A stretch of DNA of 64,000 nt from an uncultured Clostridia bacterium (GCA_944381085.1 CALWJX010000093.1:11240-75239); one strand, 5' to 3'; positions 27,200 to 54,670 are shown, counted from the stretch's first letter. A program made the numbers and translations. Notes: a model not told the origin generated them from the letters alone.

Positions 27200-27207
27200 C
27201 GCCCTTT

Positions 27208-28443: not shown

Positions 28444-28565
28444 AATTATCCTCCTTTTGCGTAGCAGTAACACCTACCTTATACCGGGATCCTATTATAC
28501 CAGAACCGGGTTCGAATTGGAGGACCTTTCTACGCACTTTTTTGTAAATATTTTGAGTCCAAACT

Positions 28566-33760: not shown

Positions 33761-33795
33761 GATGACAACAAATCGGAATTTGCGGAGGATAAATG

Positions 33796-34419: not shown

Positions 34420-34477
34420 AATCTCTGTTTGCCGAGCTGATTGCTAACGTGTAAATTAAGGGGGGTGCAACCGGAGC

Positions 34478-39212: not shown

Positions 39213-39220
39213 GTGATAAA

Positions 39221-39261
39221 AGAGTCTTAGTAGATTGAATCTGCTCAGGCTCTTTTTATTT
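39221..39261 (+). terminator. Long imperfect hairpin plus T-tract after the relaxase gene
   Basis: AGAGTCTTAGTAGATT-g-AATCTGCTCAGGCTCT followed by TTTTATTT. Confidence 0.7.
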
Positions 39262-39265
39262 CATT

Positions 39266-39293
39266 GTCATGACTTCTCCGTCATAACTTCTCG
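39266..39293 (+). repeat. Tandem 14-bp direct repeat (GTCATGACTTCTCC / GTCATAACTTCTCG)
   Basis: 12/14 identical, directly adjacent, 55 bp upstream of the -35 hexamer of the HTH/BREX promoter. Confidence 0.6.
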
Positions 39294-39347
39294 ACAGGAA
39301 AAAATCGTGCGAAACGGTTGAAAAAGTCTGAACTTACCGAAACCCTC

Positions 39348-39376
39348 TTGAAAAATCGATAAAATTGTGGTATAAT
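39348..39376 (+). promoter_or_regulatory. SigA-type promoter (TTGAAA-17-TATAAT, TGg-extended) heading the HTH plus BREX operon
   Basis: Exact 17-bp spacing and a perfect -10 hexamer. It is the only obvious promoter between the relaxase terminator and the end of the BREX operon. Confidence 0.65.
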
Positions 39377-39408
39377 AATATTTGACATTCTATGCGGAGG
39401 TAAAAATC

Positions 39409-39621
39409 ATGAAGGCAAGTTATAAAAAACTCTGGAAATTGCTCGTAGACAAAGACATGAGTAAAGGTGATTTGCATAAAGCAAGCGGCTTATCATCAAG
39501 CACCATGACGAAACTCAGAAAAGGCGAGGATGTCTCAATGGAGGCTCTTCGCAAAATATGTATTGCCCTGAATTGCAATATTTCTGACATCGTAGAGTTT
39601 GTCTCAGACAGTGACTCCTGA
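39409..39621 (+). CDS. Small XRE/Cro-type HTH protein
   Basis: Start re-called to ATG 39409 (GGAGG plus 8 nt). 70 aa. MSKGDLHKASGLSSSTMTKLRKGEDVSMEALRKICIALNCNISDIV. Confidence 0.8.
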   Translation: MKASYKKLWKLLVDKDMSKGDLHKASGLSSSTMTKLRKGEDVSMEALRKICIALNCNISDIVEFVSDSDS

Positions 39622-39677
39622 TTATGGGACAAGACAGAGTTTAAGATAAACCGAGGTATTGGATTGGAGTCAGAGCG

Positions 39678-40094
39678 ATGGGAATGATTGTAAAACATAA
39701 TATGCTGGCTGCCGACAAGGAAGCATTTCGCCTTCTCATCTACTGCTCGGCGCCACCAAATATAAGAGACAGTGCAGTCTCGATAAACAAGTTGATGGCA
39801 GAAAAATTATTGCAGCTCAAGCCTTCACGAAGAACGATGAGGATTGAAAAGTTATTCAATGAGGTCATTGACTCTCTACCGGAGAGATCAATCATTAAGG
39901 ACATAGATGTTCTATTCAATCCGGCATATAAAATCGATGTATTCAAGATGCTGACAACGGCTTGTAAACGAAAAAAGTTTGACATTATATGGTCAGGAAA
40001 ACTCGACAACAATACACTTGTCTACGGAGAAGAAGGGTTTCCTGACTATCACAAATATGAAATTGAAAACTATGACATCGTGTGTGTCGTATAA
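39678..40094 (+). CDS. Small protein at the BrxF position of a type 3 BREX locus. No intact Walker A visible.
   Basis: 138 aa, ends 14 nt before brxC. Assigned by position only. The region LLIYCSAPPNIRDS lies where a P-loop would be expected. Confidence 0.45.
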   Translation: MGMIVKHNMLAADKEAFRLLIYCSAPPNIRDSAVSINKLMAEKLLQLKPSRRTMRIEKLFNEVIDSLPERSIIKDIDVLFNPAYKIDVFKMLTTACKRKKFDIIWSGKLDNNTLVYGEEGFPDYHKYEIENYDIVCVV

Positions 40095-40108
40095 GCGGGA
40101 GGAACAAA

Positions 40109-43100
40109 ATGAAATACTCAGAATTGATCAGTTTTAATCCGATTGAGGATGTTATTCAGCTTATCACGGCTGACGATGCTGATAAAGCTCGTGAATATGT
40201 GAAGACCTATGTTATGTCTGACGCAATGGCTGATAGCCTTCAAGCTCCCGTTATTGATCAGCTTCAAATGGATGAAGTGGTTGACAACAAGGGTGTGCTT
40301 GTTGTCGGTAACTATGGTACCGGTAAGTCTCACTTGATGTCCGTCATTTCTGCAATAGCAAAAGACGCGGATAACTTGCAGTATCTTCAAAATAAAAAGT
40401 TCGCCAAAAACATGGAACCTATTGCCGGGAAGTTTGAAGTCCTTCGCATTGAAATCGGAGGCGTTACCATGTCGTTGCGTGAGATCCTCTTTGGCTTCAT
40501 TCAAGAGGATTTTGATGCTCGTGGAATTGATTACGATGTTCCCGATTTTGACACAGTAAAGGACAATAAAAAGCTCATCAAGGACATGATGATGGCGTTC
40601 AATGATAAATACCCGGACAAGGGATATTTGATTGTTGTTGACGAGTTTTTGTCTTACCTTACTTCTCGTGATGAGCGTGCTATCGTCCTTGATCTTGAGT
40701 TCTTCCGCGCATTGGGAGAAATGTGTTCAAAGTCTAATCTTCGCGTGATTTTCGGTGTTCAGGAAAAAGTCTTTGACAATCCTCGTTTCAGCTTTGTTTC
40801 TGACACACTCATGCATGTTAAGGATCGTTTCACGCAGATCATCATCACGAAGGAAGCAACATCGTATGTTGTTTCCGAGCGTATCTTGAAGAAGACTCCT
40901 GAGCAGAAAGCACTCATCAGAGCGCACCTTGAGAAGTTCTGTAATCTCTATACCGGTATGTCTTCTAAACTGGATGAGTTCGTTGATCTCTATCCGATCC
41001 ATCCGGCATATATTGATGTCTTCAATAAGATTTACCTGATTGAAAACCGTCATATTTTGAAGAATATCTCCTTGACTATCAAGGGCATATTCAACACCGA
41101 TGTTCCTGAGAATGCTCCCGGTATCATCTCTTTTGATAACTATTGGACTGCTATCAAGTCAAACGGCTTGCTTCGAAGTGATGTTACTATCAGCCGCGTT
41201 GTTAATGCCAGCCAGCAGCTCGAAGGTATCATCAATACATCTTTCCCGAAACCGGCATACAAGCCATTGGCGATCAAGATTATCTACGCATTGAGCGTAC
41301 ATCGTCTCACTACCAATGGTCTTGATGTTCAGTTTGGATTGACTGCTGAAAACCTGAAAGACGATCTCTGTCTGTATCTCATGATGCCTGAGCAGGATGC
41401 GGACTTCCTGCTTGGTGTTGTTAAGGCTACACTTCGCGACATCATGACCACAGTTTCCGGTCAGTTTATTATTTGCAACGAGGCAAACAATCAGTATTAC
41501 ATTGATGTAGATAAAGTTGTTGACTACGATGAGAAGATCAAGCAGAAAGCCTCTTTGATGGCTGACGGTGAACTTAACCGTTATTTCTATCAAGTGGTGT
41601 ATAGCTGCCTTGAGTGGGATAAGAAGCAGTATGTTTCTGGCTTCAATATCTACGAGCATGACCTGAATTGGGATTCTCACAATATCTTCCGTGAAGGTTA
41701 TCTGTTTATGGGGCTTCCCGGGGAAAGAAGCACAGCACAGCCGGAGCGTGATTTCTACCTTCACATTATGCCTCCCTATGGGAACTCCGGTGCATCGAGA
41801 CAGGACCTTGAGGACGAAGTGTACTTTTACTTCAAGTCAAGCAATGAGTTCCATGAGACAATTTCTCTCTATGCAGCTTCTTGCAGCTTGGCAGATATCA
41901 GTGAAGGTAAGGACAAGGATGCTTATCTCGCGAAGGCAAATATTCTCCGTAAAAAGCTGGTCAAGTATCTCAGCGAAAACAAGAATACTTGCTTCGATGT
42001 TGTATATAACAAAGAGCGCAAGCAGCTGATCGAAGTCTTAAAAGGACGATATAACCGCGATCTCACTTTCAATGACACCATTGACCTTGCTGCTTCTATC
42101 TGTCTGGATGGCTACTTCAATAAAATCTATCCGGACTGCCCAGTCATGAAAACAAAGATCACTCGTAAAAATATGGCTGACAACGCCCGTGCTGCTTTCG
42201 ACCATTTTGCCGGAAGAAAGACACAACAGTCCACCGCTATGTTGCAGAGCTTTGGTATTCTCGACGGGGACAAGATCCGTCCCGAAGGCTCTAAATTCGC
42301 TTCATATTATATCGATAAGGTTAAGGCTCTGCCGCAACAAGGTGTTCTCAACTTCTCTGATATGTTTGAGCAGCAAGGTTTGTATTGGCAGATCGACAAG
42401 AAGTTCAAGGTATGGCATATCTTTACGCCTATCATCTTCCTGTCAATGGTTTATGCTGGGTATGCAGTAATCACTTTGAAGAACGGCGAAACGATTACTG
42501 CGTCCTCCCTTGATAAAGTTCCGAAGACAAACGTTATGGACTTGTATGAGTTCAAGTATCTGTCCAAACCAGCACAGATTTCTATGGCTGAACTCAAAAA
42601 GCTGTTTGATGTCCTCGACATCAATCCTGCTCTTCTGGACAATCCGAATGATCGCGAAAAAGGCGTAGAAGCTTTGCTCAAGGCAGCTCAGGAACTTTGC
42701 AACAACTCCGTCCTGCTCGAAAGAAAACTGAATGACGGTTTTGAACTTTGGGGGGAGCCGCTTGCAAATCAGCAGCAGATCCAGATGATGAGAAATGCTT
42801 GCACTGCCGTTAAGAACGAGTTCAGCAATTACGGCGCAAGATTTAACACTCCTGCCAAGTTGAACAATTTCAGCCTGACATCTGAGGAAGTAGATGAACT
42901 TGCAAAGAAAATCGCTCTCTTGAAGCTCATCCCTGAGTATATTACTTTCAAGGCTGAGTGTTCTGCTGTTGTTACCTATATTTCCAGCATAGAGTTTATT
43001 GATCTCGGTGCCGCGCTGAAATCTGAGATTGAAAATGCAAAGGCTTCCTTCCGTTCTATCAGAGATGACATCATGGATGGTGTTACCGGTGAGGCTGCTG

Positions 43101-43801
43101 CGCAGAAGGTTTCCGCTGAGCTTGAGAAAATCAAGGATAAGTACATCGAGATTTACTTTGAGGAACACAAGAAAAAGAGACTGGGCATCGAAGATGCAAA
43201 GCGTAGAGGCAAAGTTCAGGAAAGTCTTGCTCTGAGCAATCTGAGAAAGCTGCGTACTATTGAAATCCTCTCTTCCGCGAAGCTCGGAGAGATCGAGAAT
43301 GACTTGGCATCTTTGAAGGTTTGCTACGATCTTACTCCCAATGAGATGAAGACCAATCCTATTTGTCCTCATTGTCGATACAGCCTTGAGGATAAGGCAA
43401 AGAATGTCTACGGTCAGCTTGATAACCTTGAGGATCGCATTGACGCCCTTGTTGCCGAATGGACAAAGCAGCTCATGGACACCATTACCGATCCAATTGT
43501 TCTAAGCCAGAAAGAGTATCTAAGCGCACAGCAGGCTAAGGTAATTGATGAGTTCATTGCTTCCGGCTCTCTGCCTCAGCGCGTGGATGACTTCTTTGTG
43601 AAGAGCATTCAGGCATTGCTCAAGAACTATGAGCCGGTTGTCATTGAGATTGAAGACCTTGTTCAAAAATTGGATGAGCTGCCGCCGCTGGATGAAATGA
43701 CATTCAAAGCGAAGCTGAACGATATTATCTCTGCCTACACGAAGGGCAAAGATGCTACGACACTGCGTATTGTTGTCAAAAGAAGAGAAAGCGAGGAATA
43801 A
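40109..43801 (+). CDS. brxC: BREX P-loop ATPase BrxC/PglY-like (about 1230 aa)
   Basis: Start re-called to ATG 40109 (GGGAGGA RBS). Walker A VVGNYGTGKSH, Walker B YLIVVDEF. Its size and position before the methyltransferase fit BrxC. Confidence 0.8.
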   Translation: MKYSELISFNPIEDVIQLITADDADKAREYVKTYVMSDAMADSLQAPVIDQLQMDEVVDNKGVLVVGNYGTGKSHLMSVISAIAKDADNLQYLQNKKFAKNMEPIAGKFEVLRIEIGGVTMSLREILFGFIQEDFDARGIDYDVPDFDTVKDNKKLIKDMMMAFNDKYPDKGYLIVVDEFLSYLTSRDERAIVLDLEFFRALGEMCSKSNLRVIFGVQEKVFDNPRFSFVSDTLMHVKDRFTQIIITKEATSYVVSERILKKTPEQKALIRAHLEKFCNLYTGMSSKLDEFVDLYPIHPAYIDVFNKIYLIENRHILKNISLTIKGIFNTDVPENAPGIISFDNYWTAIKSNGLLRSDVTISRVVNASQQLEGIINTSFPKPAYKPLAIKIIYALSVHRLTTNGLDVQFGLTAENLKDDLCLYLMMPEQDADFLLGVVKATLRDIMTTVSGQFIICNEANNQYYIDVDKVVDYDEKIKQKASLMADGELNRYFYQVVYSCLEWDKKQYVSGFNIYEHDLNWDSHNIFREGYLFMGLPGERSTAQPERDFYLHIMPPYGNSGASRQDLEDEVYFYFKSSNEFHETISLYAASCSLADISEGKDKDAYLAKANILRKKLVKYLSENKNTCFDVVYNKERKQLIEVLKGRYNRDLTFNDTIDLAASICLDGYFNKIYPDCPVMKTKITRKNMADNARAAFDHFAGRKTQQSTAMLQSFGILDGDKIRPEGSKFASYYIDKVKALPQQGVLNFSDMFEQQGLYWQIDKKFKVWHIFTPIIFLSMVYAGYAVITLKNGETITASSLDKVPKTNVMDLYEFKYLSKPAQISMAELKKLFDVLDINPALLDNPNDREKGVEALLKAAQELCNNSVLLERKLNDGFELWGEPLANQQQIQMMRNACTAVKNEFSNYGARFNTPAKLNNFSLTSEEVDELAKKIALLKLIPEYITFKAECSAVVTYISSIEFIDLGAALKSEIENAKASFRSIRDDIMDGVTGEAAAQKVSAELEKIKDKYIEIYFEEHKKKRLGIEDAKRRGKVQESLALSNLRKLRTIEILSSAKLGEIENDLASLKVCYDLTPNEMKTNPICPHCRYSLEDKAKNVYGQLDNLEDRIDALVAEWTKQLMDTITDPIVLSQKEYLSAQQAKVIDEFIASGSLPQRVDDFFVKSIQALLKNYEPVVIEIEDLVQKLDELPPLDEMTFKAKLNDIISAYTKGKDATTLRIVVKRRESEE

Positions 43802-43804
43802 TCG

Positions 43805-46396
43805 ATGGAAAAAAGAAAACTGACGAAGGAAGACATCGATAAAGTCCGTCATATAGAAGGATTCCCTATTGGAAGCGATGATGATATCATCGCCTTATCC
43901 GAAGCTCCATACTATACTGCTTGTCCGAATCCTTTTATCAACGAATTTCTTTCTGAATTTGGAAAATCTTATGACGAATCAACAGATGATTATCATAGAG
44001 AACCATTTGCCGCAGATGTAAGCGAAGGCAAAAGTGACATAATATATAATGTCCACAGCTACCACACCAAAGTTCCTCATAAGGCTATCATGCGTTACAT
44101 ACTCCATTACACTCAACCCGGGGATATTGTGTACGATAGCTTTGGTGGTTCTGGAATGACAGGCGTTGCAGCTCAAATGTGTGGTGATAGAGAAACCGTT
44201 ACTTCTCTTTTGAGTTCCTATTCTGACCTCGAAGAGCGTGTAGGGGCGAGAAAAGCAATTATCAGCGATCTTTCTCCCGCTGCAACATTCACCGCGCTTA
44301 ACTATAACTATTCTGTGAACACAAGCGAACTCAGAAACGCATGGGATCGGATTTATAGAAGCGCATTGGAGAATTATGGTTGGATGTTAGAAACCAATCA
44401 TTCGCATAAAGACAATTCTCCGTCATTGTTTTTACATGATCATGTGAAAGGCAGCATAAACTATTCCGTTTGGTCTGATGTCATGATATGTCCTGTGTGC
44501 GGAAAAGAGTTTGTGTTTTGGGACATTGCCGTGGATGAAAGCGCGGGGAAAGTCCGTGACAGAATGTATTGCCCTCACTGCAATGGAGAAATGTCAAAGC
44601 GTGAATGTGAAAAGTCAATGCATACTTATGTTGATGATATAACCGGAGAATTGGTATCTGCAATCAAGCAAGTTCCTGTGTTGATCAACTATACTTGGTG
44701 TGGGAAAAAATTTGATAAGAAACCAAATTCAGAAGATATTGCTCTGATAGAAAAGATAGAAGCACTCAAAGTTCCTTTCTGGTGTCCTTCTGACAGAATG
44801 TGCGAAGGAACAGAAAGTCGTAGAAATGACAAATATGGCATTAAGAATGTTCATCAGTTTTTTACGAAAAGAAACCTGATCCTCCTTGGCTACATTTTGA
44901 ACGAGGCAGATAAGGAGTCGCAACCTATCAAACACAGGATAATGTCAGCTATGAAAAGTTCGTTCTCATATGGAACGAAAATGATCAAAGTGAACATTGG
45001 GCGCTTGTTGAATGGCGGCGGTACTTTTGCTATGGGCGCAGTAAGTGGCACATTGTATATACCAAGCCTTATGGCAGAGCGCAATATTCTTGAAGCTATT
45101 GACAACAAAATTCAAAGTATCATTAAGCTCTACTCAACCGCCCAACTAAGTAAAAATGTATATATCAATACAGGATCCTCTTCCTGTGTGCCAAACATTC
45201 CAGAAAACAGTATCGACTATATCTTTACAGATCCTCCTTTTGGAGATAATTTGAACTACTCCGAATTGAATTTCATTTGGGAAGCATGGGGCAAAGTTTT
45301 CACTAATAACACTTCCGAAGCAATCATGAGTAAAACTCAACGCAAGGGGGTTGTTGAATACCAAGAGCTTATGACACAGTGCTTCTCTGAGAACTTCCGT
45401 ATTTTGAAGCCGGGAAGATGGATGACTGTCGAGTTTCATAACTCTAAGAACAATGTATGGAACGCAATCCAAGAGTCTTTAATGCGTGTAGGCTTCATTA
45501 TTGCAGATGTAAGAACTCTTGACAAAAAGCAAGGTAGTTTCAAACAAGTAACTACAACAACAGCTGTAAAACAAGACCTCGTAATTTCGGCATATAAACC
45601 AAAGGACGAGTTCAGGCAGAGATTCCTGCAAAACGCAGGGACAACAGAGACAGCTTGGGATTTTGTCAGACAACATTTATCGAACATTCCTGTTGTAGTA
45701 AAAAAAGAAGATAAAATCGAGCTTATCTCAGAGCGTCAGGGATTTTTATTGTTTGATAGAATGGTTGCATATCATATTATGCAAGGAATCGCAGTGCCGC
45801 TTGATGCTCCAGATTTCTACAAAGGGCTCGAGGACAGATTCCTAAAGAGAGACAATATGTATTTTTTGCCCGATCAGGTCAACGAATATGACATGGCACG
45901 CGCAACCTGTGATGTAGAGGCAATTCAATTCTCGCTGTTTGTTTCTGATGAAAAGTCTGCGATAGGTTGGTTGTACCAGCAGCTTGACGCAAACAGCGGC
46001 GATGGTCCGCAAACTTATCAGGATTTGATGCCTAAGTTCATGCAGGAATTGAAGGCAGTCGATAAGCGCGAAAAAATGCCTGAGCTTTCTGTCATCCTTG
46101 AAGAAAACTTCCTCAAGGACGAAGACGGTAAATGGTATATCCCGGACCTAACCAAGAGTGGCGATATTGCGAAGCTGCGTGAAAAGAACTTGCTCAAGGA
46201 GTTCCAAGAGTACCTGAATAGCAAGGGTAAGCTCAAGGTTTTCCGTTCCGAAGCAATCCGAGCTGGTTTTGCAAAGCTCTGGAAGGATAAGGACTACGCT
46301 GCCATCGTTGCGCTGGCAAATCGTCTTCCCGAAGAAACAATTCAGGAAGATCAGAACTTGCTCATGTATTACGACATTAGCTTGAGCAGAGTGTAA
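43805..46396 (+). CDS. pglXI: BREX type 3 DNA methyltransferase PglXI-like (N6/N4 amino-MTase)
   Basis: 863 aa. SAM motif VYDSFGGSGMTG (aa 109-120), catalytic DPPF (aa 476-479), and a CxxC...CxxC zinc ribbon (C229/C232/C256/C259) between them. Confidence 0.8.
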   Translation: MEKRKLTKEDIDKVRHIEGFPIGSDDDIIALSEAPYYTACPNPFINEFLSEFGKSYDESTDDYHREPFAADVSEGKSDIIYNVHSYHTKVPHKAIMRYILHYTQPGDIVYDSFGGSGMTGVAAQMCGDRETVTSLLSSYSDLEERVGARKAIISDLSPAATFTALNYNYSVNTSELRNAWDRIYRSALENYGWMLETNHSHKDNSPSLFLHDHVKGSINYSVWSDVMICPVCGKEFVFWDIAVDESAGKVRDRMYCPHCNGEMSKRECEKSMHTYVDDITGELVSAIKQVPVLINYTWCGKKFDKKPNSEDIALIEKIEALKVPFWCPSDRMCEGTESRRNDKYGIKNVHQFFTKRNLILLGYILNEADKESQPIKHRIMSAMKSSFSYGTKMIKVNIGRLLNGGGTFAMGAVSGTLYIPSLMAERNILEAIDNKIQSIIKLYSTAQLSKNVYINTGSSSCVPNIPENSIDYIFTDPPFGDNLNYSELNFIWEAWGKVFTNNTSEAIMSKTQRKGVVEYQELMTQCFSENFRILKPGRWMTVEFHNSKNNVWNAIQESLMRVGFIIADVRTLDKKQGSFKQVTTTTAVKQDLVISAYKPKDEFRQRFLQNAGTTETAWDFVRQHLSNIPVVVKKEDKIELISERQGFLLFDRMVAYHIMQGIAVPLDAPDFYKGLEDRFLKRDNMYFLPDQVNEYDMARATCDVEAIQFSLFVSDEKSAIGWLYQQLDANSGDGPQTYQDLMPKFMQELKAVDKREKMPELSVILEENFLKDEDGKWYIPDLTKSGDIAKLREKNLLKEFQEYLNSKGKLKVFRSEAIRAGFAKLWKDKDYAAIVALANRLPEETIQEDQNLLMYYDISLSRV

Positions 46397-46418
46397 TATA
46401 AGAAAGTGAGGTTATTTT

Positions 46419-47558: not shown

Positions 47559-49443
47559 CCGAAGCATTGGAAAACTAACATCGGTGAGCCAGCGCGGAAT
47601 CATTGCCGAAATCTACTCTGGATTAGGAAACTACATCAGCACAAATGATGGAGTTCGGTTTGTCGGTGAGGTAGGGTCGTATGTTTCTATCTACGATGTT
47701 AACCGTACTATAATCGGAGAAATAACCGGCGTTGAAGAAAAACCGCAGTTCAAAAACGCCGAACTGAATAAGCCAAACAGCAGCCGCTTGGCAACTATCA
47801 ATCTTGTTGGGGAGATCGTTTCAGAACGGTTTTACTTTGGTGTGTCAAAAATGCCTCTCGTATTTTCTGATGTCAACATCATTTCGCAAAACGACCTTAG
47901 AATAATGCTTGAGGTTACAGACGATGAAACTGTTGTAGATAAGGAGAATGGTAAAACTCGTGCTGAATTGCTGAAGCTTGGCACATCGGTCATTTTCCCT
48001 GATTACTCCGTGAAGGTAAACATAGACAAGTTCTTTGGCTTTCATTTTGCCGTGTTTGGAAACACAGGTGCCGGAAAATCGAATACCATAGCCACAATCA
48101 TGCAGGAGATCTTTCGCAAGAAAGACTATGCAGCTAAAGGTGCTAAATTTGTCTTTATAGATTCCAACGGTGAGTATGCAAAGGCATTTTCGGAGATTTC
48201 GCAAGTAAACGAGACAGTTCAAGCTAAAGAGTTTGTCGCCTCGGATGACGATTTGGTAGATAATCGCCTTCAGATACCCGTGTGGGCATTGAGTGCTGAT
48301 GACTGGGCTATTCTTCTTCACGCATCAGAAAAAACACAAATTCCTATACTTAAGAGGGCAATAGATATAGCAAAGAGTTTCTTTGATGAAACCACAAGCA
48401 ATACTGATGTAAGAAATCATATACTCGCAAGTTCCCTTGTTGGAGTGTTTTGCAGTTCGGATTCGTCCCCGTCCAAGGGAGATAAGCTGATTAGTATTCT
48501 ATCCACCTTTATGACGGATGAAATAAGCCTTGATACGCAAGTCGGAAAGGTACAATATCAAGATGGACGAGAACGAAAAGAAACAGATGGTACATTAAGA
48601 GCTGCCATTAAGGTCGGCTTTGGAAATATGTTGTCGCCTGAAACTGTGATAAAGTATTTGCAAAAGTTTATTAAGTCGGATATTGCTGATAGCCTTTCAA
48701 GCTCAAAAGCTGTCCCTTATTCACTGCAACAGTTTTCAGAGGCAGTGCAGTTTGCGACCTTATATGAAGGGAGTATCAGCTCTCAAAGGATACAAGAGTA
48801 TACCTCAACACTGGTAACTCGGCTTCAGTCCCTTCAAGATGGTATTCAAGGGAAAATACTTGTTAAGACTGAATATGATTCAATAGACAGCTTTATCCAG
48901 AGTGTTCTTGGCATACATCAGATTGTCAATATCGATATTAGCTCTTTAGATGACGCTTCCGCTGAAGTGGTGGCAAAAGTCTTTGCCAAACTTCTCCTTG
49001 ATTATTTGCGAAAACGAGAGAAAAAAGCCGATATGCCAATAAATTTTGTGATTGAGGAGGCTCATCGTTTCATACGCAACGAAACGAATTACGGGCCTCT
49101 CGGATACAACATCTTCGAGAGAATTGCAAAAGAAGGGCGTAAATATGGTTTGCTTTTGGGCATATCATCTCAGCGTCCGAGTGAATTGTCTAAAACTGTA
49201 GTTTCGCAATGCAGTAACTTCATCATTCATAGGGTACAGAACCCAGATGACCTTCAGTATATTTCGAGGATGGTTCCCTATGTCAATCAGGGTATGATAG
49301 ATCGATTAACATACCTTCAGACTGGTCATGCGCTTGTTTTCGGTACGGCGATTAATCTGCCAACGCTTACGAGGTTTGATGAAGCATCGCCTAAACCTGA
49401 TAGTGAAAATGCAAAGATTTCGGAACGATGGTATGTTGAATAA
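47551..49443 (+). CDS. HerA-like (DUF87) hexameric ATPase, partner of SIR2
   Basis: ATG 47551 overlaps the SIR2 stop by 8 nt. Walker A FGNTGAGKSN, Walker B NFVIEEAHRF, and the GISSQRPSELSKTVVSQCSNFIIHRV block. Confidence 0.85.
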   Translation: MNSRSIGKLTSVSQRGIIAEIYSGLGNYISTNDGVRFVGEVGSYVSIYDVNRTIIGEITGVEEKPQFKNAELNKPNSSRLATINLVGEIVSERFYFGVSKMPLVFSDVNIISQNDLRIMLEVTDDETVVDKENGKTRAELLKLGTSVIFPDYSVKVNIDKFFGFHFAVFGNTGAGKSNTIATIMQEIFRKKDYAAKGAKFVFIDSNGEYAKAFSEISQVNETVQAKEFVASDDDLVDNRLQIPVWALSADDWAILLHASEKTQIPILKRAIDIAKSFFDETTSNTDVRNHILASSLVGVFCSSDSSPSKGDKLISILSTFMTDEISLDTQVGKVQYQDGRERKETDGTLRAAIKVGFGNMLSPETVIKYLQKFIKSDIADSLSSSKAVPYSLQQFSEAVQFATLYEGSISSQRIQEYTSTLVTRLQSLQDGIQGKILVKTEYDSIDSFIQSVLGIHQIVNIDISSLDDASAEVVAKVFAKLLLDYLRKREKKADMPINFVIEEAHRFIRNETNYGPLGYNIFERIAKEGRKYGLLLGISSQRPSELSKTVVSQCSNFIIHRVQNPDDLQYISRMVPYVNQGMIDRLTYLQTGHALVFGTAINLPTLTRFDEASPKPDSENAKISERWYVE

Positions 49444-49458
49444 AGGAGTATTTTGATT

Positions 49459-52131
49459 ATGTACAATGTCGGAGATTTGGTGTTTGATACCGCCACCGGT
49501 GCAAGTGTCCAAGTGTTGGAAAAGATTGAAGCATGGGGCTATGTGTCCTATCGCGTCTTCAATCTTGCTACCGGAGCTGTTTATAAGGCAACGGGAGAAC
49601 AACTGAATATGGATGGCGGGACCAATACATACGACGAAAACTATCTCCGGTATGTTACACTCTTATCAAAGATCCGCAACGAGACTGCAGGAGGACTCCT
49701 GTCATCTCTCGCAAGCGGAGTCATTCCGCTTCCTCACCAGCTCCATGTTCTGAATAGGGTAATGGAGAATAACACCATCCGCTACATTCTTGCTGATGAA
49801 GTGGGGCTTGGTAAAACTATCGAAGCCGGAATGGTCATCAAAGAGTTAAAAGCTCGTGGATTGGTAAAGCGTATTCTGGTAGTTTGTCCTACCGGTCTTG
49901 TTACTCAGTGGGCGGCAGAAATGCAGGACAAGTTTCATGAGAAGTTCAATGTAATTCTTCCGTCTGACTATGATACTATTCGCCGTCTGACCGACAACGA
50001 GGATGTCTACGGACAATACGATCAGGTCATATCTCCGATGGACTCTATCAAGCCCATCGAGCGCCACGCCGGTTGGACAGAAGAGCGCGTCGAAAAATAC
50101 AACGAGGAACGAATCTATTCCATTATCAATAGTGGATGGGATTTGATTGTTATTGATGAGGCACACAGAGTTGCCGGATCAACCGGCGAAGTTGCGCGAT
50201 ACAAGTTGGGTTATCTGCTCTCTCAGGCAAGCCCATATCTACTGCTGCTTTCTGCAACGCCCCATAACGGCAAAACTGAGCCTTTCTTGAGGCTTGTTCG
50301 CCTTCTTGACGAAGAAGCCTTCCCTAACACAAAATCAATAGTAAAGGAACAAGTTGCGCCTTACCTGATTCGTACAGAAAAGCGTGAGGCAATAGACAAT
50401 AACGGCAACAAACTTTTCAAAAATAGAATTACGCATCTCGTGGAAATGTCTTGGGACGAGCGTCACACCATGCAGAAGGAACTCTACAAGCTGGTTACAG
50501 CTTATGTCTCGAAGACCTATAACAAAGCGCAACGCAATCGAAAAAAGAATATGTGCTTGATCTTCCTGCTAATCATCATGCAGCGCATGGTAACAAGCAG
50601 CACAACAGCGGTACGCCAAAGCCTTGAAAGAAGACTCGATATTCTCAAGTCTCAAAGTACGCGCATCGGCTCTCTTACCGAAGAAGATTTGGCTGAACTT
50701 GATATTGAGGACGGTGTGGAAGAAGCTCTTGAAGCAATTTCTCTTGATTTGGATGAGGAAATATCAGAGCTTGAGAACATCATTTCCATTGCAAAGCAAG
50801 CTGAGTTTCAGCACCCAGATGTCAAAATTGAACATCTGCTCAATACGATAGATGAAATAATCGGGGAGGACCGCGATCAGAAGATAATCATCTTTACTGA
50901 GTTCGTTGCCACTCAGCAATACCTTGAGCGCATCCTTACAAGTAACGGGTACACTGTATCTACCCTCAATGGCAGTATGACAATCGACGAAAGGAATCTT
51001 GCTCTCAAGGATTTCCGAGATTGCGCTAACATATTTATCTCTACTGATGCCGGTGGAGAAGGCTTGAACTTGCAGTTTTCCAATATTATCATCAATTACG
51101 ATCTTCCATGGAATCCCATGAAGATTGAGCAAAGATGTGGACGAGCTGACCGTATCGGGCAAAAACGCGATGTTCATATTTACAATTTCATCATCGGAGA
51201 TACTGTTGAAAACCGTGTTCGTCAAGTTCTCGAAGAGAAGCTATCCGTTATTTTTAAGGAAATGGGCGTTGACAAATACTCTGATGTTCTGGACAGCGAA
51301 GTTGCAGAATGTGACTTCACGGATGTATATATGCGCTCAATCAGCCATCCAAGCAAGATTGCTGAATCACTTTATCCTGTCGAGGCAGAAATGAAACAGC
51401 AACTTGCTAATGCAAAGAAATATAAGGATGTAATCCGTGAAGAAAAAGACCTAACGACGCTCGTGGGCAGCGAATCTGATTTTGATGTTGAAGAAGCGTT
51501 GCGTATGGTTTTGACATACTATGATCGCTGGCAAGGAGAGCAACTTAGCCTGTTTGATCAAATTGCCATAAATGATGAGAAAGTAACGAAGCACCTGAAT
51601 GTGGACATTATGCAGGATCGCTTCTCGCCAATACTTTCCGTCGGAATAAAGAACTTCCCTAATGAGGCTGGTTATTTTATGCTCTGGGAGCTGTCATTGT
51701 CCGATAATGATGCAGATAAAAGAATCGTTCCTATATTTGTCAACAACAACTTTGTTCTGCGCCCTATGGCTGGAAAACGGATAATGGATGTATTTCTTGA
51801 TCCAAACTCAAAATTGACTGTGGGTAGCAGAGCAAATATCTCAAATGATGAGTATGAGCATCTTGAGAAGATGTGTATGGAGTTCGCATATGACACATTT
51901 GTTGATCTTAAAGAAAAGCAGCTTAAGCGAAATCAGGAAAGCTACGACAAGTATATGTATGCTTTGTGCCTGAGAATAGAAGCGGCACAGCAAATTGGTA
52001 TTGAGAATATACGGAAAGCCCGGTTGAAAAGATTGGACGAGGAAAAGCGTTCTATCGAAGAAACCTATATTAAAGGACAAAAAGTATTTCCTGACTTCCG
52101 CTTAGTTCTTCTTGCTGGATTGGAGGCTTAA
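49459..52131 (+). CDS. brxHII: SNF2-family helicase, BrxHII-like
   Basis: Start re-called to ATG 49459 (AAAGGAG RBS). Has ADEVGLGKTIEAG (motif I), VIDEAHRV (motif II), and a helicase-C region (STDAGGEGLNLQ...QRCGRADRIGQ). Confidence 0.8.
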   Translation: MYNVGDLVFDTATGASVQVLEKIEAWGYVSYRVFNLATGAVYKATGEQLNMDGGTNTYDENYLRYVTLLSKIRNETAGGLLSSLASGVIPLPHQLHVLNRVMENNTIRYILADEVGLGKTIEAGMVIKELKARGLVKRILVVCPTGLVTQWAAEMQDKFHEKFNVILPSDYDTIRRLTDNEDVYGQYDQVISPMDSIKPIERHAGWTEERVEKYNEERIYSIINSGWDLIVIDEAHRVAGSTGEVARYKLGYLLSQASPYLLLLSATPHNGKTEPFLRLVRLLDEEAFPNTKSIVKEQVAPYLIRTEKREAIDNNGNKLFKNRITHLVEMSWDERHTMQKELYKLVTAYVSKTYNKAQRNRKKNMCLIFLLIIMQRMVTSSTTAVRQSLERRLDILKSQSTRIGSLTEEDLAELDIEDGVEEALEAISLDLDEEISELENIISIAKQAEFQHPDVKIEHLLNTIDEIIGEDRDQKIIIFTEFVATQQYLERILTSNGYTVSTLNGSMTIDERNLALKDFRDCANIFISTDAGGEGLNLQFSNIIINYDLPWNPMKIEQRCGRADRIGQKRDVHIYNFIIGDTVENRVRQVLEEKLSVIFKEMGVDKYSDVLDSEVAECDFTDVYMRSISHPSKIAESLYPVEAEMKQQLANAKKYKDVIREEKDLTTLVGSESDFDVEEALRMVLTYYDRWQGEQLSLFDQIAINDEKVTKHLNVDIMQDRFSPILSVGIKNFPNEAGYFMLWELSLSDNDADKRIVPIFVNNNFVLRPMAGKRIMDVFLDPNSKLTVGSRANISNDEYEHLEKMCMEFAYDTFVDLKEKQLKRNQESYDKYMYALCLRIEAAQQIGIENIRKARLKRLDEEKRSIEETYIKGQKVFPDFRLVLLAGLEA

Positions 52132-52133
52132 AA

Positions 52134-53597
52134 ATGTTTGGAAGCTATCTCTATGAGCAGTCAGCAGCTCAGTACACAAATAGAATATTGATTATTGACT
52201 GCGACGGCTTAGGAGATCGCATTCAACTCGAAAAGGTATTTGAGGATCATGGCTTTATAGTGTTACCGTACATTGATGATCTTTATTTCCGCGTTGAGCA
52301 GCATGACAAACTCAGTTGTGAATCAGAGAAATATGCCGTAATTGTCAAACCAAGCCAATACATTCCCTACGACATATATCATGAGTTTACCCCGTTCAAA
52401 CTTACATATGCTAAGTTGTTCCCCAAACTCAGTGCTGCTGTACTGAAAAATCGGAATGATATAAACCTTGATCTGCTGGTCATGGCATACAAAAATTGTT
52501 TTTCTGATTTGTCCGTGAGTCAGTTGACTGAACAGTTTATCCAACGAAAAGTCTATTCACGAGAAAACATTCAAATATATCTTGATATTGCTGTCAAAAA
52601 GCTGTCTGAAAAATGCTCCACGGCAAGCAGTTATCAAGATTGGTTTGCCATCGCAGAAGATAAAGCTGCCATCGATGTCATGGCAACGGAATATGATGTG
52701 TCTGCTGATACAGATCGGTTTCATGCGTTATTTGTTGACTTTATTGAAAGCAATTTCGGAAAATTGTCTTCCAAAATTGATCGTGCTACGCCTGTAACTG
52801 TCAGCAGAGCTATGGAATACATCAAAGATCATAGCGACAAGTTTGTAATTATTGTCATGGACGGTATGTCTGAATTTGATTGGGAAATAATCAGCCGGTC
52901 ATTCAAAGGATTGGTATATGACAAATCCAACATATTTGCAATGATACCTACTACAACATCAATTTCAAGACAATGCTTGCTCTCTAATAAATATCCGAGC
53001 CAGCTTATGGAGCCGTGGAAGCAAAGCAAGGAAAAGCAAGAGTTCTTTGATTGCGCTAACGGTTTAGGTTTTACTAATGAACAGATTGATTATGTTAGAG
53101 GATACGAAGTTAGTTTCAGCTCCTTTGTGAAATGTGGCGCAGTAATTATAAACGATGTTGATGATATGGTTCATGGTCAGCAGCAAGGACGAATTGGAAT
53201 GTTTAATGACATCTCTGTTTTGGCGAAGCAAGGGCAACTTGCAAGTTTGACGAAGCGATTGCTTAACGCTGGTTACGATGTATATATCACAGCAGATCAC
53301 GGAAACACGCCATGTGTTGGAATGGGAAAACTCATGAAAACCGGCGTAGAAATAGAAACCAAGAGCCGCAGAATGCTCGTTCTCAAAGACTTTGCGGATA
53401 AAGATAAGCTGCTTGAACAGTATTCGCTTATTGATTATCCGAAGTATTACTTGAGTAAAGAGTTTGATTACCTCATTTGTGGCGTTGGATGCTCCTTTGA
53501 TGCAAAAGGAGAAGCAGTAATGTCGCATGGTGGCATTACGATAGATGAGGTAATTGTTCCATTCATAAAGGTAAAGGCGGTAGACAATAATGGCTAA
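52134..53597 (+). CDS. pglZ: PglZ-domain (alkaline-phosphatase superfamily) protein, short form (487 aa)
   Basis: FVIIVMDGMSEFDWE, YITADHGNTPC and MSHGGITIDEVIVPFI match the conserved PglZ metal-site blocks. Confidence 0.8.
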   Translation: MFGSYLYEQSAAQYTNRILIIDCDGLGDRIQLEKVFEDHGFIVLPYIDDLYFRVEQHDKLSCESEKYAVIVKPSQYIPYDIYHEFTPFKLTYAKLFPKLSAAVLKNRNDINLDLLVMAYKNCFSDLSVSQLTEQFIQRKVYSRENIQIYLDIAVKKLSEKCSTASSYQDWFAIAEDKAAIDVMATEYDVSADTDRFHALFVDFIESNFGKLSSKIDRATPVTVSRAMEYIKDHSDKFVIIVMDGMSEFDWEIISRSFKGLVYDKSNIFAMIPTTTSISRQCLLSNKYPSQLMEPWKQSKEKQEFFDCANGLGFTNEQIDYVRGYEVSFSSFVKCGAVIINDVDDMVHGQQQGRIGMFNDISVLAKQGQLASLTKRLLNAGYDVYITADHGNTPCVGMGKLMKTGVEIETKSRRMLVLKDFADKDKLLEQYSLIDYPKYYLSKEFDYLICGVGCSFDAKGEAVMSHGGITIDEVIVPFIKVKAVDNNG

Positions 53598-54297
53598 AAC
53601 AGTAGGATTTGCTTGTAGTATAAAGCTACAATGGATAAAAAGAACAATACAACTTCTTGAAGAAGGTCATGACAAAGAGAGCTTCAAAAAAGAGCTAAAT
53701 GATTATTTGAGCTTTGAAATTGAAGGACCGACCAGACTTCGAAAGACAAGAGAAATCTTGATGAATATGTGGTATTACGAGCTGGATGATGTGTCTCCTG
53801 CGCGGAAAGAAGCTCTTTCTTTAATAGAAAAATACCCTGAATATATCGTACCAATAAGCCTATGCATACTCTATTTGGCTTATCCTGTTGTTGCAGATGT
53901 ATGTAAGTTTATGGGCAGAATGTTTGAAGCACATGATGAAATCACAAATGCAATGTTGAAGCAGAAGCTCTTTGATGAATGGGGTGAGCGCGGTACACTG
54001 GAAGCAACCAGCCGTCGCGTAACTCTGACACTCAAAGAACTTGGTCTCATCAAAGATGCTTCTCGTACAAGATACATCTTGACCAAACAGGAAATTACGA
54101 ATACCGAAGTTATCAATTTTGTCATTGCAACGATTATGAAAATTGATGGTGGCAGCTATTACTCCTTTAGTGAGCTTCATGATTTTGTACTTCTATTCCC
54201 GTTTGATTACAAAGTGAGCAAAGAAGAACTTATTACAAACAATCGGTACACCGTAAGCACATTTGGTGGCGAAGTATCAGTTTCCCTCCGCGAATAA
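53590..54297 (+). CDS. BrxA-position protein (DUF1819-like by context)
   Basis: 235 aa. Overlaps the pglZ end by 8 nt and is the terminal gene of the operon, as brxA is in type 3 BREX. The family was not verified. Confidence 0.5.
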   Translation: MAKTVGFACSIKLQWIKRTIQLLEEGHDKESFKKELNDYLSFEIEGPTRLRKTREILMNMWYYELDDVSPARKEALSLIEKYPEYIVPISLCILYLAYPVVADVCKFMGRMFEAHDEITNAMLKQKLFDEWGERGTLEATSRRVTLTLKELGLIKDASRTRYILTKQEITNTEVINFVIATIMKIDGGSYYSFSELHDFVLLFPFDYKVSKEELITNNRYTVSTFGGEVSVSLRE

Positions 54298-54300
54298 AAA

Positions 54301-54343
54301 AGAGCCTCAGCCGACACCCACAATGGGCATCGACTGAGGCTCT
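54301..54343. terminator. Long hairpin between convergent operons. An A-run lies 5' on the plus strand, which gives a T-tract for the minus-strand operon.
   Basis: AGAGCCTCAG(CCGA)...(TCGA)CTGAGGCTCT with an inner CCCA/TGGG pairing, preceded by AAAAA. Confidence 0.65.
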
Positions 54344-54472
54344 TCGCACTTCATAGGGGCTTTAACTTAGTGGCTGAAATCGACACTTATCCGCACAGTA
54401 ACGGAGGAAGACTGCCATATGGGAAAACATACGGGGGTGCTTTCTTGCGCAGCTCCCTGGGCGAAAAAACCG

Positions 54473-54670
54473 TCATTTTCGACCTTTATCCTGACAGTAA
54501 ACCACATCCTCAGACCGCTTTGAGAAATAACGGGAACAGGCAACAACTTCGGTGCGGAAGCTCTGCTTGCAATCATGGATGCAGCGGCGGCACTGGTCGT
54601 TGTACTTTCGTCTTCCGTCCGTGCCTAAGAAGAATGCCCACTCATCCTTCCATTTCCGGCTGCGGCTCAT
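54473..54670 (-). CDS. Small Cys-rich basic protein (65 aa)
   Basis: Its ATG overlaps the stop of the ArdA-fusion gene (TTATGA). Sequence ...CRRCIHDCKQSFRTEVVACSRYFSKRS. Confidence 0.6.
   Translation of the reverse strand: MSRSRKWKDEWAFFLGTDGRRKYNDQCRRCIHDCKQSFRTEVVACSRYFSKRSEDVVYCQDKGRK

What the first reader, a model, noticed from the sequence alone, without database searches (positions are those of the whole stretch)
39348..54348. Type 3 BREX operon on an ICE with a SIR2-HerA pair spliced into its middle
One strong promoter (39348-39376) is followed by nine co-directional genes and a single terminal hairpin (54301-54343). The genes are an XRE HTH, a 138-aa BrxF-position protein, BrxC (Walker A GNYGTGKSH) and PglXI (DSFGGSG / DPPF). 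Then come SIR2_2, HerA, an SNF2 helicase (VIDEAH), PglZ (DGMSEFDW, ADHGN, SHGGITIDE) and a 235-aa BrxA-position protein. Without the SIR2 and HerA genes, this is exactly the published type 3 BREX order brxF-brxC-pglXI-brxHII-pglZ-brxA. From the BrxF-position gene through the BrxA-position gene, spacings are +14, +3, +22, -8, +15, +2 and -8 nt. I see no room for an internal promoter or terminator. BREX has no known effector step, whereas SIR2-HerA is an NAD-depleting abortive-infection module. A gap-free fusion of the two suggests a composite system rather than two neighbours in an island. I am not aware of this architecture having been described, but I cannot check that here.
Basis: partly seen in the sequence, partly recalled or inferred. 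Interest (0 to 1): 0.88.

Follow-up and report, generated by a model that had tools for sequence, protein, structure and literature searches.

The report
SIR2-HerA cassette inside BREX-3 operon
A type 3 BREX phage-defence operon on a gut-bacterial mobile element carries a second known defence system, SIR2-HerA, at a junction where related operons carry a dozen other interchangeable defence cassettes. This makes it a clear example of the already described "embedded defence" pattern rather than a new fused system.

Summary
Nine co-directional genes lie at 39409-54297: XRE, BrxF, BrxC, PglXI, SIR2, HerA, BrxHII, PglZ and BrxA. HMMs confirm every assignment.

The interpretation as a dedicated composite is not supported. 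A relative with 83% identical BrxHII has pglXI and brxHII 21 nt apart with no insert. A SIR2-HerA pair with 70% identical HerA stands alone with its own upstream region.

Of 74 related BREX-3 loci from metagenomes, 42 (57%) carry cargo at exactly this junction, co-directional in 40 and tightly packed in those examined. The cargo includes:
- two CBASS types
- Kiwa and Gabija
- OLD-family and Schlafen-like proteins
- a GmrSD-like protein
- several PADLOC candidate systems (PDC)

SIR2-HerA is one of at least 13 alternative cassettes. Relatives with 92% and 89% identical BrxHII, on the same mobile-element backbone, carry Kiwa and Gabija instead.

Embedding of defence systems in BREX is already published (Payne et al. 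2024 preprint; NAR 2026 BREX survey). I did not find SIR2-HerA in BREX-3 named in either paper.

Most likely there are two self-sufficient systems on one transcript, with SIR2-HerA acting as a second-line abortive-infection layer.

Novelty: new member of a known kind. Interest: modest.

The parts
39348..39376 (+). Sigma-70-type promoter-like site (TTGAAA, 17 nt, TG-TATAAT) upstream of the operon
   Evidence: 11 of 12 matches with an extended -10 TG, the best hit in 38500-55500. Function is inferred, not shown.
39409..39621 (+). XRE/Cro-type HTH regulator (70 aa), first gene of the operon
   Evidence: Pfam HTH_26 4e-20. The same gene stands in front of BrxF in relatives.
39678..40094 (+). BrxF (138 aa)
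   Evidence: PADLOC BrxF 1.2e-19. NCBIfam BREX_3_BrxF scores 66 bits against a cut-off of 50.
40109..43801 (+). BrxC/PglY ATPase (1230 aa), Walker A GNYGTGKSH
   Evidence: PADLOC BrxC 1338 bits over the full length. Pfam DUF6079/BrxC-PglY 1565 bits. Motif confirmed.
43805..46396 (+). PglXI N6-adenine methyltransferase (863 aa). Its core, about 44184-45200, is a hypervariable target-recognition region.
   Evidence: PADLOC PglXI 1190 bits. DPPF and DSFGGSG are present. The core cannot be aligned between elements that are otherwise 96% identical.
46398..49469 (+). Inserted cargo cassette relative to empty-site and other-cargo relatives (SIR2 and HerA with their ribosome-binding spacers)
   Evidence: Homology to the Acidaminococcus empty locus and to the Kiwa-, Gabija- and CBASS-bearing loci stops at 46394-46397. 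It resumes at 49465-49470.
46419..47558 (+). SIR2 NADase-type effector (379 aa) with GAGCS, TTNYD and KLHGS motifs
   Evidence: PADLOC SIR2 1.3e-98. Pfam SIR2_2. PDB SIR2-HerA complexes 8yhx 1.9e-41 and 8j4u 2.3e-23. Motifs confirmed.
47551..49443 (+). HerA ATPase (630 aa), Walker A GNTGAGKS and Walker B IEEAH. It overlaps SIR2 by 8 nt.
   Evidence: PADLOC HerA 3.6e-173. Pfam DUF87. PDB HerA chains of SIR2-HerA and related complexes, 7e-38 to 3e-33.
49459..52131 (+). BrxHII SNF2 helicase (890 aa)
   Evidence: PADLOC BrxHI|BrxHII 984 bits. Pfam SNF2-rel_dom and Helicase_C. The 890-891 aa length is conserved in 120 close homologues.
52134..53597 (+). PglZ (487 aa, a short form conserved across this clade)
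   Evidence: PADLOC PglZ 4e-66. NCBIfam BREX_PglZ_3 scores 264.6 bits against a cut-off of 250, covering profile positions 285-641 only.
53590..54297 (+). BrxA (235 aa)
   Evidence: PADLOC BrxA 8.9e-40 over the full length.
54301..54343 (.). Strong hairpin between the convergent BREX operon and the ArdA-side genes. Its T-run is on the minus strand.
   Evidence: -31.8 kcal/mol, z = -6.4.

Best explanation
This is a canonical type 3 BREX operon (XRE-brxF-brxC-pglXI-brxHII-pglZ-brxA). It is carried as cargo on a tRNA-Ser-integrated, relaxase-encoding mobile element of human-gut bacteria. The pglXI-brxHII junction is a recombinational cargo slot, and here it is occupied by a two-gene SIR2-HerA abortive-infection cassette.

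Shown:
- the cassette is an exact, gene-boundary insertion
- the same slot is empty or holds other known defence systems in close relatives
- SIR2-HerA relatives exist as free-standing systems
- both modules have intact catalytic motifs

Inferred:
- All nine genes are transcribed from the promoter at 39348, possibly under the XRE regulator, so the embedded system is co-regulated with BREX.
- BREX-3 methylates host DNA through PglXI and blocks replication of unmethylated phage DNA.
- SIR2-HerA assembles into its own large complex, as the solved homologues do. On sensing infection it depletes NAD+ (with ATPase and DNA-processing activities), killing or arresting cells in which BREX has failed or been inhibited.
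- Cassettes are probably exchanged by homologous recombination in the conserved ends of pglXI and brxHII.
For: - HMM assignments for all nine proteins.
- Exact spacing.
- Empty-site relative: the Acidaminococcus provencensis locus has BrxHII 83% identical and pglXI-brxHII 21 nt apart. Its alignment breaks at window 46397 and 49470.
- Free-standing SIR2-HerA with HerA 70% identical in Caproiciproducens. It has a 225-nt upstream region containing a terminator-like hairpin and a TTGACA hexamer.
- 42 of 74 related loci carry cargo at this junction. None has more than 88 nt at brxHII-pglZ.
- Cargo identified by PADLOC: CBASS cyclase+2TM; CBASS nuclease-SAVED+cyclase+E2; Kiwa; Gabija; OLD; Schlafen-like; PDC-S06; PDC-M36A-like; PDC-M48; HEC-06/GmrSD-like.
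- In the 13 cargo-bearing loci examined, the cargo starts 2-25 nt after the pglXI stop. No shared repeat was seen at the boundaries.
- The closest relatives carry different cargo on the same relaxase-BREX-ArdA backbone: Kiwa at 92% BrxHII identity and Gabija at 89%.
- The identical HerA is indexed in 566 sample blocks. All 10 places shown (of 23 contigs read) have the same nested architecture.
- SIR2-HerA homologues act as two-gene systems that form a ~1.1 MDa complex with NADase, ATPase, helicase and nuclease activities (PMC11472057; PMC13434337).
- Embedding of defence systems in BREX is documented.
Against: - No expression data exist. A single transcript is inferred only from spacing and from the lack of intergenic signals.
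- The terminal hairpin lacks a U-tract on the operon strand.
- A second lineage (HerA 74% and BrxHII 86% identical, different flanking genes) has SIR2-HerA in the same slot. This shows the combination is retained or re-acquired, and is compatible with some selective benefit of this particular pairing.
- Independence of the two modules has not been tested here.
Confidence: 0.75

Rival explanations
1. Guard-type coupling. SIR2-HerA is mechanistically autonomous but is wired to BREX. It is held inactive by an intact BREX complex, or triggered by phage anti-BREX proteins or by DNA ends or nicks produced during BREX restriction. This would resemble PrrC embedded in EcoprrI, or PARIS embedded in BREX, which fire when the host system is inhibited.
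For: - Embedded systems with this logic are documented (Payne et al.; PMC12839542).
- E. coli type III Sir2-HerA is activated by phage SSB and a RecBCD inhibitor, and is gated by end-exposed DNA (PMC13434337).
- Nesting is retained in two diverged lineages.
- Many of the alternative cassettes in the slot belong to the same abortive or second-line class: CBASS, Gabija, OLD, Kiwa.
Against: - A SIR2-HerA pair with HerA 70% identical stands alone.
- The slot accepts mechanistically unrelated cargo, so no specific interface with BREX proteins is required.
- No extra domain or adaptor gene accompanies the nested pair.
Confidence: 0.15
2. Obligate composite. SIR2-HerA has become the effector arm of this BREX-3 system. 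BREX recognition of unmethylated DNA is needed to fire the NADase, and BREX alone is not protective.
For: - Gap-free operonic placement.
- Conservation of the nine-gene unit in hundreds of metagenome samples.
Against: - Relatives with 83-92% identical BrxHII have an empty slot or Kiwa, Gabija or CBASS instead.
- All six BREX-3 components are retained intact with their catalytic motifs.
- Homologous SIR2-HerA systems are self-sufficient.
- Tight spacing is a property of the slot, not of this cargo.
Confidence: 0.07
3. Passive hitch-hiker. The cassette landed in the operon by chance recombination and is silent or decaying, or it disrupts BREX expression.
For: One relative has an IS element in pglXI, which shows that such loci do suffer disruption (L010).
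Against: - Both ORFs are full length with intact NAD-binding and catalytic motifs and Walker motifs.
- HerA is 100% identical across many samples.
- Each gene has its own Shine-Dalgarno-like spacer.
- Cargo is co-directional in 40 of the 42 occupied loci; L155 holds only minus-strand ORFs and L119 one.
Confidence: 0.03

Closest known systems
Defence systems embedded in BREX, DISARM, type I RM and Hma ('guilt-by-embedding'; Payne et al., bioRxiv 10.1101/2024.01.29.577857), and 'auxiliary/backup effectors' in BREX loci (PMC12839542)
   Same: - A known defence module is nested between core genes of a modification-based system.
- It is co-oriented with that system.
- Occupancy varies among relatives.
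- Several cassettes seen in this slot (PDC-S02, PDC-S06, PDC-M36, PDC-M48, HEC-06, Gabija, OLD, Schlafen-like) are the very families those studies report as embedded.
   Different: - Neither paper's text, nor the supplements held here, names SIR2 or SIR2-HerA as BREX cargo.
- The concentration of at least 13 cassette types at one junction of one BREX-3 clade on related ICEs is, as far as I could check, not spelled out.
Type 3 BREX (Goldfarb et al. 2015 classification: brxF-brxC-pglXI-brxHII-pglZ-brxA)
   Same: All six components are present, in the same order and orientation, and are HMM-confirmed.
   Different: - Two extra genes lie between pglXI and brxHII.
- An XRE regulator stands in front.
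- PglZ is a short 487-aa form and BrxHII is 890 aa, against about 940 aa in the published description.
SIR2-HerA / Nezha two-gene abortive-infection system (structures 8yhx, 8j4u/8su9, 8w9l; PMC11472057, PMC11514289, PMC13434337)
   Same: - SIR2_2 and HerA genes are adjacent and overlapping.
- GAGxS, TTNYD and KLHGS motifs and Walker A/B motifs are conserved.
- Significant sequence matches to the solved complexes.
   Different: - No promoter region of its own; it is expressed, by inference, from the BREX operon.
- It scores well below NCBIfam's equivalog cut-offs, so it is a divergent subfamily.
BrxU (GmrSD) in the pEFER BREX locus, PARIS in Salmonella and E. coli BREX, and PrrC in EcoprrI
   Same: A second-line or complementary system lies inside a modification-based defence operon.
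   Different: - Different cargo chemistry (NAD+ depletion) and a different BREX subtype.
- For those systems, complementarity or guard logic was shown experimentally. Here it is only inferred.
BREX-related capture (BRC) systems: HerA/FtsK with BrxC-, PglZ-, BrxA- and BrxB-like proteins (PMC12839542)
   Same: A HerA-family ATPase is encoded together with DUF6079/BrxC, PglZ and a BrxA-like protein.
   Different: - BRC lacks the methyltransferase and BrxHII, and often has GNAT or TGT.
- Its HerA is DndH-like and is a universal core component.
- Here HerA is paired with SIR2, is dispensable in relatives, and the host system is a complete BREX-3.

Membership tests
Type 3 BREX | PglZ alkaline-phosphatase-family protein of the BREX-3 type | tested here: met
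   NCBIfam BREX_PglZ_3 scores 264.6 bits against a cut-off of 250. PADLOC PglZ 4e-66. Only the C-terminal ~355 profile positions are covered.
Type 3 BREX | BrxC/PglY P-loop ATPase | tested here: met
   PADLOC BrxC 1338 bits over the full length. Pfam DUF6079 1565 bits. Walker A is present.
Type 3 BREX | PglXI-type methyltransferase (not PglX) | tested here: met
   PADLOC model PDLC02541 (PglX|PglXI; description PglXI) 1190 bits. N6_N4_Mtase, with the DPPF motif.
Type 3 BREX | BrxHII SNF2-type helicase | tested here: met
   PADLOC model PDLC02500 (BrxHI|BrxHII) 984 bits, covering profile positions 1-673 of 933. SNF2-rel_dom and Helicase_C are present. The C-terminal third diverges from the model.
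Type 3 BREX | BrxF and BrxA accessory proteins, and the gene order brxF-brxC-pglXI-brxHII-pglZ-brxA | tested here: met
   BrxF scores 66 bits against a cut-off of 50. BrxA 8.9e-40. The order is as published apart from the two inserted genes.
Type 3 BREX | Motif-specific host methylation and exclusion of unmethylated phage | not testable with these tools
   Needs SMRT or nanopore methylome data and phage assays.
SIR2-HerA (Nezha) abortive-infection system | SIR2_2-domain protein with an NAD-binding glycine motif and catalytic Asn/His motifs | tested here: met
   GAGCS at residue 40, TTNYD at 158 and KLHGS at 219. These align with the same motifs in 8yhx and 8j4u. PADLOC SIR2 329 bits.
SIR2-HerA (Nezha) abortive-infection system | Adjacent HerA/DUF87 ATPase with Walker A and B motifs | tested here: met
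   PADLOC HerA 575 bits. DUF87. GNTGAGKS and IEEAH are present. There is an 8-nt overlap with SIR2.
SIR2-HerA (Nezha) abortive-infection system | Membership of NCBI's curated anti-phage SIR2 and HerA equivalogs | tested here: not met
   126 bits against a cut-off of 500, and 193 against 800. It is homologous, but a divergent subfamily relative to those exemplars.
SIR2-HerA (Nezha) abortive-infection system | Infection-triggered NAD+ depletion and formation of a SIR2-HerA supercomplex | not testable with these tools
   Inferred from homologues (PMC11472057; PMC13434337).
Embedded defence cassette in a host defence operon (Payne et al. 2024) | Flanked on both sides by core genes of one host system, in the same orientation | tested here: met
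   pglXI lies upstream and brxHII downstream, all on the plus strand.
Embedded defence cassette in a host defence operon (Payne et al. 2024) | Host system occurs without the cargo, and cargo occurs without the host | tested here: met
   Empty-site BREX-3. Free-standing SIR2-HerA.
Embedded defence cassette in a host defence operon (Payne et al. 2024) | Alternative cargo at the same position in relatives | tested here: met
   42 of 74 loci are occupied, with at least 13 cassette types.
BREX-related capture (BRC) system | HerA/FtsK as a universal core with BrxC-, PglZ- and BrxA-like proteins, no BREX methyltransferase or helicase, and often GNAT or TGT | tested here: not met
   PglXI and BrxHII are present. 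There is no GNAT or TGT gene in the operon. HerA is absent from close relatives.

The most novel reading that the evidence does not exclude
The pglXI-brxHII junction of this ICE-borne BREX-3 clade is a dedicated, operon-internal cargo slot. Promoter-less defence cassettes are swapped in by recombination and placed under the BREX promoter and XRE regulator. The cargo, SIR2-HerA here, is not merely co-expressed. It is functionally licensed by BREX status, for example firing when BREX is inhibited or when BREX-processed phage DNA ends accumulate. BREX-3 would then act as a platform sensor for interchangeable abortive effectors.
Probability: 0.15. Interest if true: 0.7.

Novelty: new member of a known kind. 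Interest (0 to 1): 0.35.

Why it matters
Type 3 BREX is among the least studied BREX subtypes, and how embedded systems cooperate with their hosts is still largely conjecture.

This clade offers a natural, near-isogenic series. The same ICE backbone and the same BREX-3 genes occur with an empty slot or with SIR2-HerA, Kiwa, Gabija, CBASS, OLD and others. That series could be used to test three questions:
- whether embedding gives co-regulation only
- whether it provides back-up when BREX is inhibited
- whether there is true cross-talk

The element is common in human-gut metagenomes and also carries a chloramphenicol acetyltransferase. The defence load therefore travels with a resistance-bearing mobile element.

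As a stand-alone discovery it is incremental, because the principle is already published.

Tried and rejected
1. The genome-contig scan used an alignment of 27 diverse BrxHII sequences. The patterns chosen were generic SNF2 motifs, so most of the 80 loci were unrelated SNF2 helicases. Only about 12 were BREX-3. Those still showed Schlafen-like, OLD/AriA-like and PD-T7-3 genes and a second PglXI embedded in the operon.\n2. A megablast of pglXI-brxHII against PLSDB plasmids found no match.\n3. Literature searches for SIR2-HerA with BREX, for embedding, and for type 3 / type III BREX found no paper that describes this combination. The two relevant surveys do not contain the word SIR2 in their text or in the supplements held here.\n4. 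I looked for att-like or integron-like repeats at the cassette borders. Only the conserved coding ends of pglXI and brxHII are shared.\n5. I considered filing the locus as a BRC (HerA-PglZ capture) system and rejected that. The methyltransferase and BrxHII are present, and HerA is dispensable in relatives.\n6. I considered that the short PglZ (487 aa) is a truncation and rejected that. The same length is found throughout the clade.\n7. Structure prediction was not run. Sequence matches to the solved SIR2-HerA complexes were already decisive.


Full report
**Observation**

The region holds nine co-directional ORFs:

| Gene | Coordinates |
|---|---|
| XRE | 39409-39621 |
| BrxF | 39678-40094 |
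| BrxC | 40109-43801 |
| PglXI | 43805-46396 |
| SIR2 | 46419-47558 |
| HerA | 47551-49443 |
| BrxHII | 49459-52131 |
| PglZ | 52134-53597 |
| BrxA | 53590-54297 |

Every quoted motif is present. The promoter-like site at 39348-39376 (TTGAAA, 17 nt, TG-TATAAT) matches 11 of 12 positions and is the best hit in the region. Overall, promoter-like hits are no more frequent than in shuffled sequence: 32 against 31.8.

The hairpin at 54301-54343 is very stable (-31.8 kcal/mol, z = -6.4). Its T-run lies on the minus strand, and on the operon strand it is followed by CGCACTTCAT. It is formally the terminator of the convergent ArdA-side genes, and only possibly a bidirectional stop.

**Identity of the genes**

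PADLOC models hit all eight defence proteins:

| Protein | PADLOC result |
|---|---|
| BrxF | 1.2e-19 |
| BrxC | 1338 bits |
| PglXI | 1190 bits |
| SIR2 | 1.3e-98 |
| HerA | 3.6e-173 |
| BrxHII | 984 bits |
| PglZ | 4e-66 |
| BrxA | 8.9e-40 |

- Pfam agrees: HTH_26, DUF6079/BrxC, N6_N4_Mtase, SIR2_2, DUF87, SNF2-rel_dom with Helicase_C, and PglZ.
- NCBIfam's BREX-3-specific models for BrxF and PglZ are passed above their curated cut-offs.
- SIR2 and HerA match the chains of solved SIR2-HerA complexes (8yhx, 8j4u/8su9, 8w9l). GAGCS, TTNYD, KLHGS and the Walker A/B motifs are conserved.
- They score far below NCBIfam's equivalog cut-offs, so they form a divergent subfamily.

**Context**

A tRNA-Ser gene (27073-27161) abuts a tyrosine integrase (27208-28473, minus strand) at a G+C step. 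Downstream of these come a chloramphenicol acetyltransferase, a macro-domain protein, an ImpB-type polymerase, NikA/MobC and a relaxase (37845-39212). The BREX operon follows. Convergent with it are an ArdA polyprotein, an ArdC-like protein and topoisomerase III.

This is an integrative mobile element. No type IV secretion genes turned up among the ORFs I scanned (27208-63557), so 'ICE' is plausible but not shown.

**Is the pair an insertion?**

Yes.
- An Acidaminococcus provencensis genome and three metagenome contigs (BrxHII 83% identical) have XRE-BrxF-BrxC-PglXI-BrxHII-PglZ-BrxA, with pglXI and brxHII 21 nt apart.
- DNA homology with the window ends at 46397 and resumes at 49470.
- Conversely, a SIR2-HerA pair with HerA 70% identical stands alone in a Caproiciproducens element. 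It lies behind a 225-nt non-coding region with a terminator-like hairpin and a TTGACA hexamer.

Each module therefore exists without the other in relatives.

**How common is the nested form?**

- The identical HerA is indexed in 566 sample blocks, mostly human-gut metagenomes. All ten places shown (of 23 contigs read) have the same nine-gene arrangement on the same backbone. One of them is 100% identical to the window over 21.9 kb.
- A second lineage (HerA 74% and BrxHII 86% identical) has SIR2-HerA in the same slot but with different flanking genes.

**The decisive comparison**

A metagenome scan with the window's BrxHII returned 80 loci at 59-99% identity. I mapped the window's proteins onto them and measured the junction gaps.

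| Junction | Result |
|---|---|
| pglXI-brxHII (74 loci show both genes) | 42 loci (57%) have more than 300 nt of extra DNA |
| brxHII-pglZ | never more than 88 nt |
| brxC-pglXI | holds a PDC-S02 (PD-DExK) gene in 10 loci |

I clustered the cargo ORFs, scanned representatives with PADLOC and tallied them. Counts are loci that contain the cassette, whether alone or combined with another.

| Cargo at pglXI-brxHII | Loci |
|---|---|
| CBASS cyclase + 2TM effector | 12 |
| Schlafen-like | 6 |
| CBASS nuclease-SAVED + cyclase + E2 | 5 |
| PDC-S06 | 4 |
| OLD-family nuclease | 4 |
| PDC-M36A-like | 2 |
| PDC-M48 | 2 |
| Kiwa | 2 |
| Gabija | 2 |
| HEC-06/GmrSD-like | 1 |
| SIR2-HerA | 1 |
| Unassigned small cassettes | 4 |

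- Three loci carry combinations: Kiwa with Gabija, CBASS with OLD, and the three-gene CBASS with OLD.
- The nearest relatives of the window's BrxHII carry SIR2-HerA (99%), Kiwa (92%), Gabija (89%) and CBASS (85%).
- The Kiwa and Gabija loci share the relaxase-BREX-ArdA backbone.
- In the 13 cargo-bearing loci I examined, the first cargo gene starts 2-25 nt after the pglXI stop codon and the last ends just before the brxHII start. I saw no shared repeat at the borders. Cargo is co-directional in 40 of the 42 occupied loci.
- Homology between differently loaded loci ends at the gene boundaries.
- More distant BREX-3 loci from genomes show the same habit. Schlafen-like and OLD/AriA-like genes sit between pglXI and brxHII. 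Schlafen-like genes, PD-T7-3 or a second PglXI sit between brxC and pglXI.

Gap-free, co-directional nesting is a property of the slot, not of SIR2-HerA. It cannot be taken as evidence that these two systems have fused into one mechanism.

The most economical reading is two self-sufficient systems sharing a transcript. BREX-3 is the methylation-based first line. SIR2-HerA is an abortive-infection second line acting through NAD+ depletion, with ATPase and DNA-processing activities. Homologues form a ~1.1 MDa complex (PMC11472057) and are triggered by phage proteins (PMC13434337).

Co-regulation by the XRE regulator and promoter is inferred. A guard-type link, in which the cargo fires when BREX is inhibited, is plausible by analogy with PrrC in EcoprrI and PARIS in BREX, but it is untested.

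The premise that BREX lacks any effector is dated. PglZ of type I BREX has been reported as a metal-dependent nuclease (PMC12205998; PMC12839542).

**Prior art and novelty**

- Payne et al. [quoted passage not shown] They found 17,432 non-redundant embedded genes, 96.7% of them co-oriented, and used this to discover HEC and PDC systems. Several of those systems are the cargo seen here.
- The 2026 NAR survey of BREX (PMC12839542) catalogues auxiliary and backup nuclease effectors inside BREX loci: PARIS/OLD, GmrSD, Shedu, HEPN and Schlafen.
- Neither paper mentions SIR2, in its text or in the supplements held here. Targeted literature searches found no description of SIR2-HerA inside type 3 BREX.

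The specific combination is therefore probably unreported. The kind is known, so I rate it a new member of a known kind.

**Side observations**

- Elements whose flanks are 96% identical, and whose HerA is 100% identical, differ completely in the core of pglXI (window 44184-45200; 20-50% amino-acid identity). This indicates swapping of specificity alleles.
- One relative has an IS element in pglXI.
- PglZ is a 487-aa short form throughout the clade.

**Verdict**

- The BREX-3 and SIR2-HerA assignments are confirmed.
- The 'composite system' reading is not supported.
- The architecture belongs to the published class of embedded defence cassettes.
- Interest is modest at 0.35. What lifts it slightly is the unusually clean, multi-cassette hotspot on a common gut mobile element, which would make a good experimental series.

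Noticed in passing
window 44184-45200 (core of pglXI); L008, L009, L012, L014: Elements that are about 96% identical in the flanks, and carry a 100% identical HerA, have a non-alignable pglXI core (20-50% amino-acid identity, protein lengths 838-863). This looks like swapping of target-recognition alleles, and hence of methylation specificity, between otherwise near-identical BREX-3 operons.
   Followed up: partly
L100-L179, junction between brxC and pglXI: A second, less used cargo position exists. Ten related loci carry a ~340-aa PDC-S02 (PD-DExK) gene between brxC and pglXI, often together with cargo at the pglXI-brxHII junction. The brxHII-pglZ and pglZ-brxA junctions are never occupied.
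   Followed up: partly
L010 6841-8097: An IS element (rve integrase, opposite strand) splits pglXI in one otherwise identical element. SIR2-HerA and the remaining BREX genes stay intact.
   Followed up: no
window 54301-54343 and 54667-56424 (minus strand): The operon-terminal hairpin has its T-run on the minus strand. It is shared with a convergent gene for an ArdA-DUF3846-LPD18-DUF4316 anti-restriction polyprotein. The element therefore carries an anti-restriction gene back to back with its own BREX system.
   Followed up: partly
window 27073-28473: A tRNA-Ser (CGA) gene lies directly next to a tyrosine integrase at a G+C step from about 0.37 to 0.47. This is the likely left end of the mobile element.
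   Followed up: partly
window 32723-35986: The element carries a macro-domain protein, a chloramphenicol acetyltransferase (CAT, 6e-80) and an ImpB/MucB-type Y-family polymerase upstream of the relaxase.
   Followed up: no
window 52134-53597: PglZ is only 487 aa and matches only positions 285-641 of the BREX-3 PglZ profiles. The same length is found in every relative examined, so this clade has a short PglZ with a different or missing N-terminal region.
   Followed up: partly
P0122 (identical HerA); One public record labels the identical HerA 'Candidatus Colimorpha enterica' (Bacteroidales). The related loci that carry organism labels are Bacillota (Acidaminococcus, Clostridia, Caproiciproducens). 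This is either a binning error for a mobile element or a wide host range.
   Followed up: no
L002-L005 (Acidaminococcus provencensis), both sides of the BREX-3 operon: The empty-slot BREX-3 operon is bracketed by CTD6/MC2/AAA_23-type gene sets in inverted orientation on both sides.
   Followed up: no
window 39409-39621: The XRE regulator at the head of the operon resembles the VanU regulator family (78.6 bits, below the cut-off of 150). The same small HTH gene precedes brxF in the Acidaminococcus relatives and in the second SIR2-HerA lineage.
   Followed up: no
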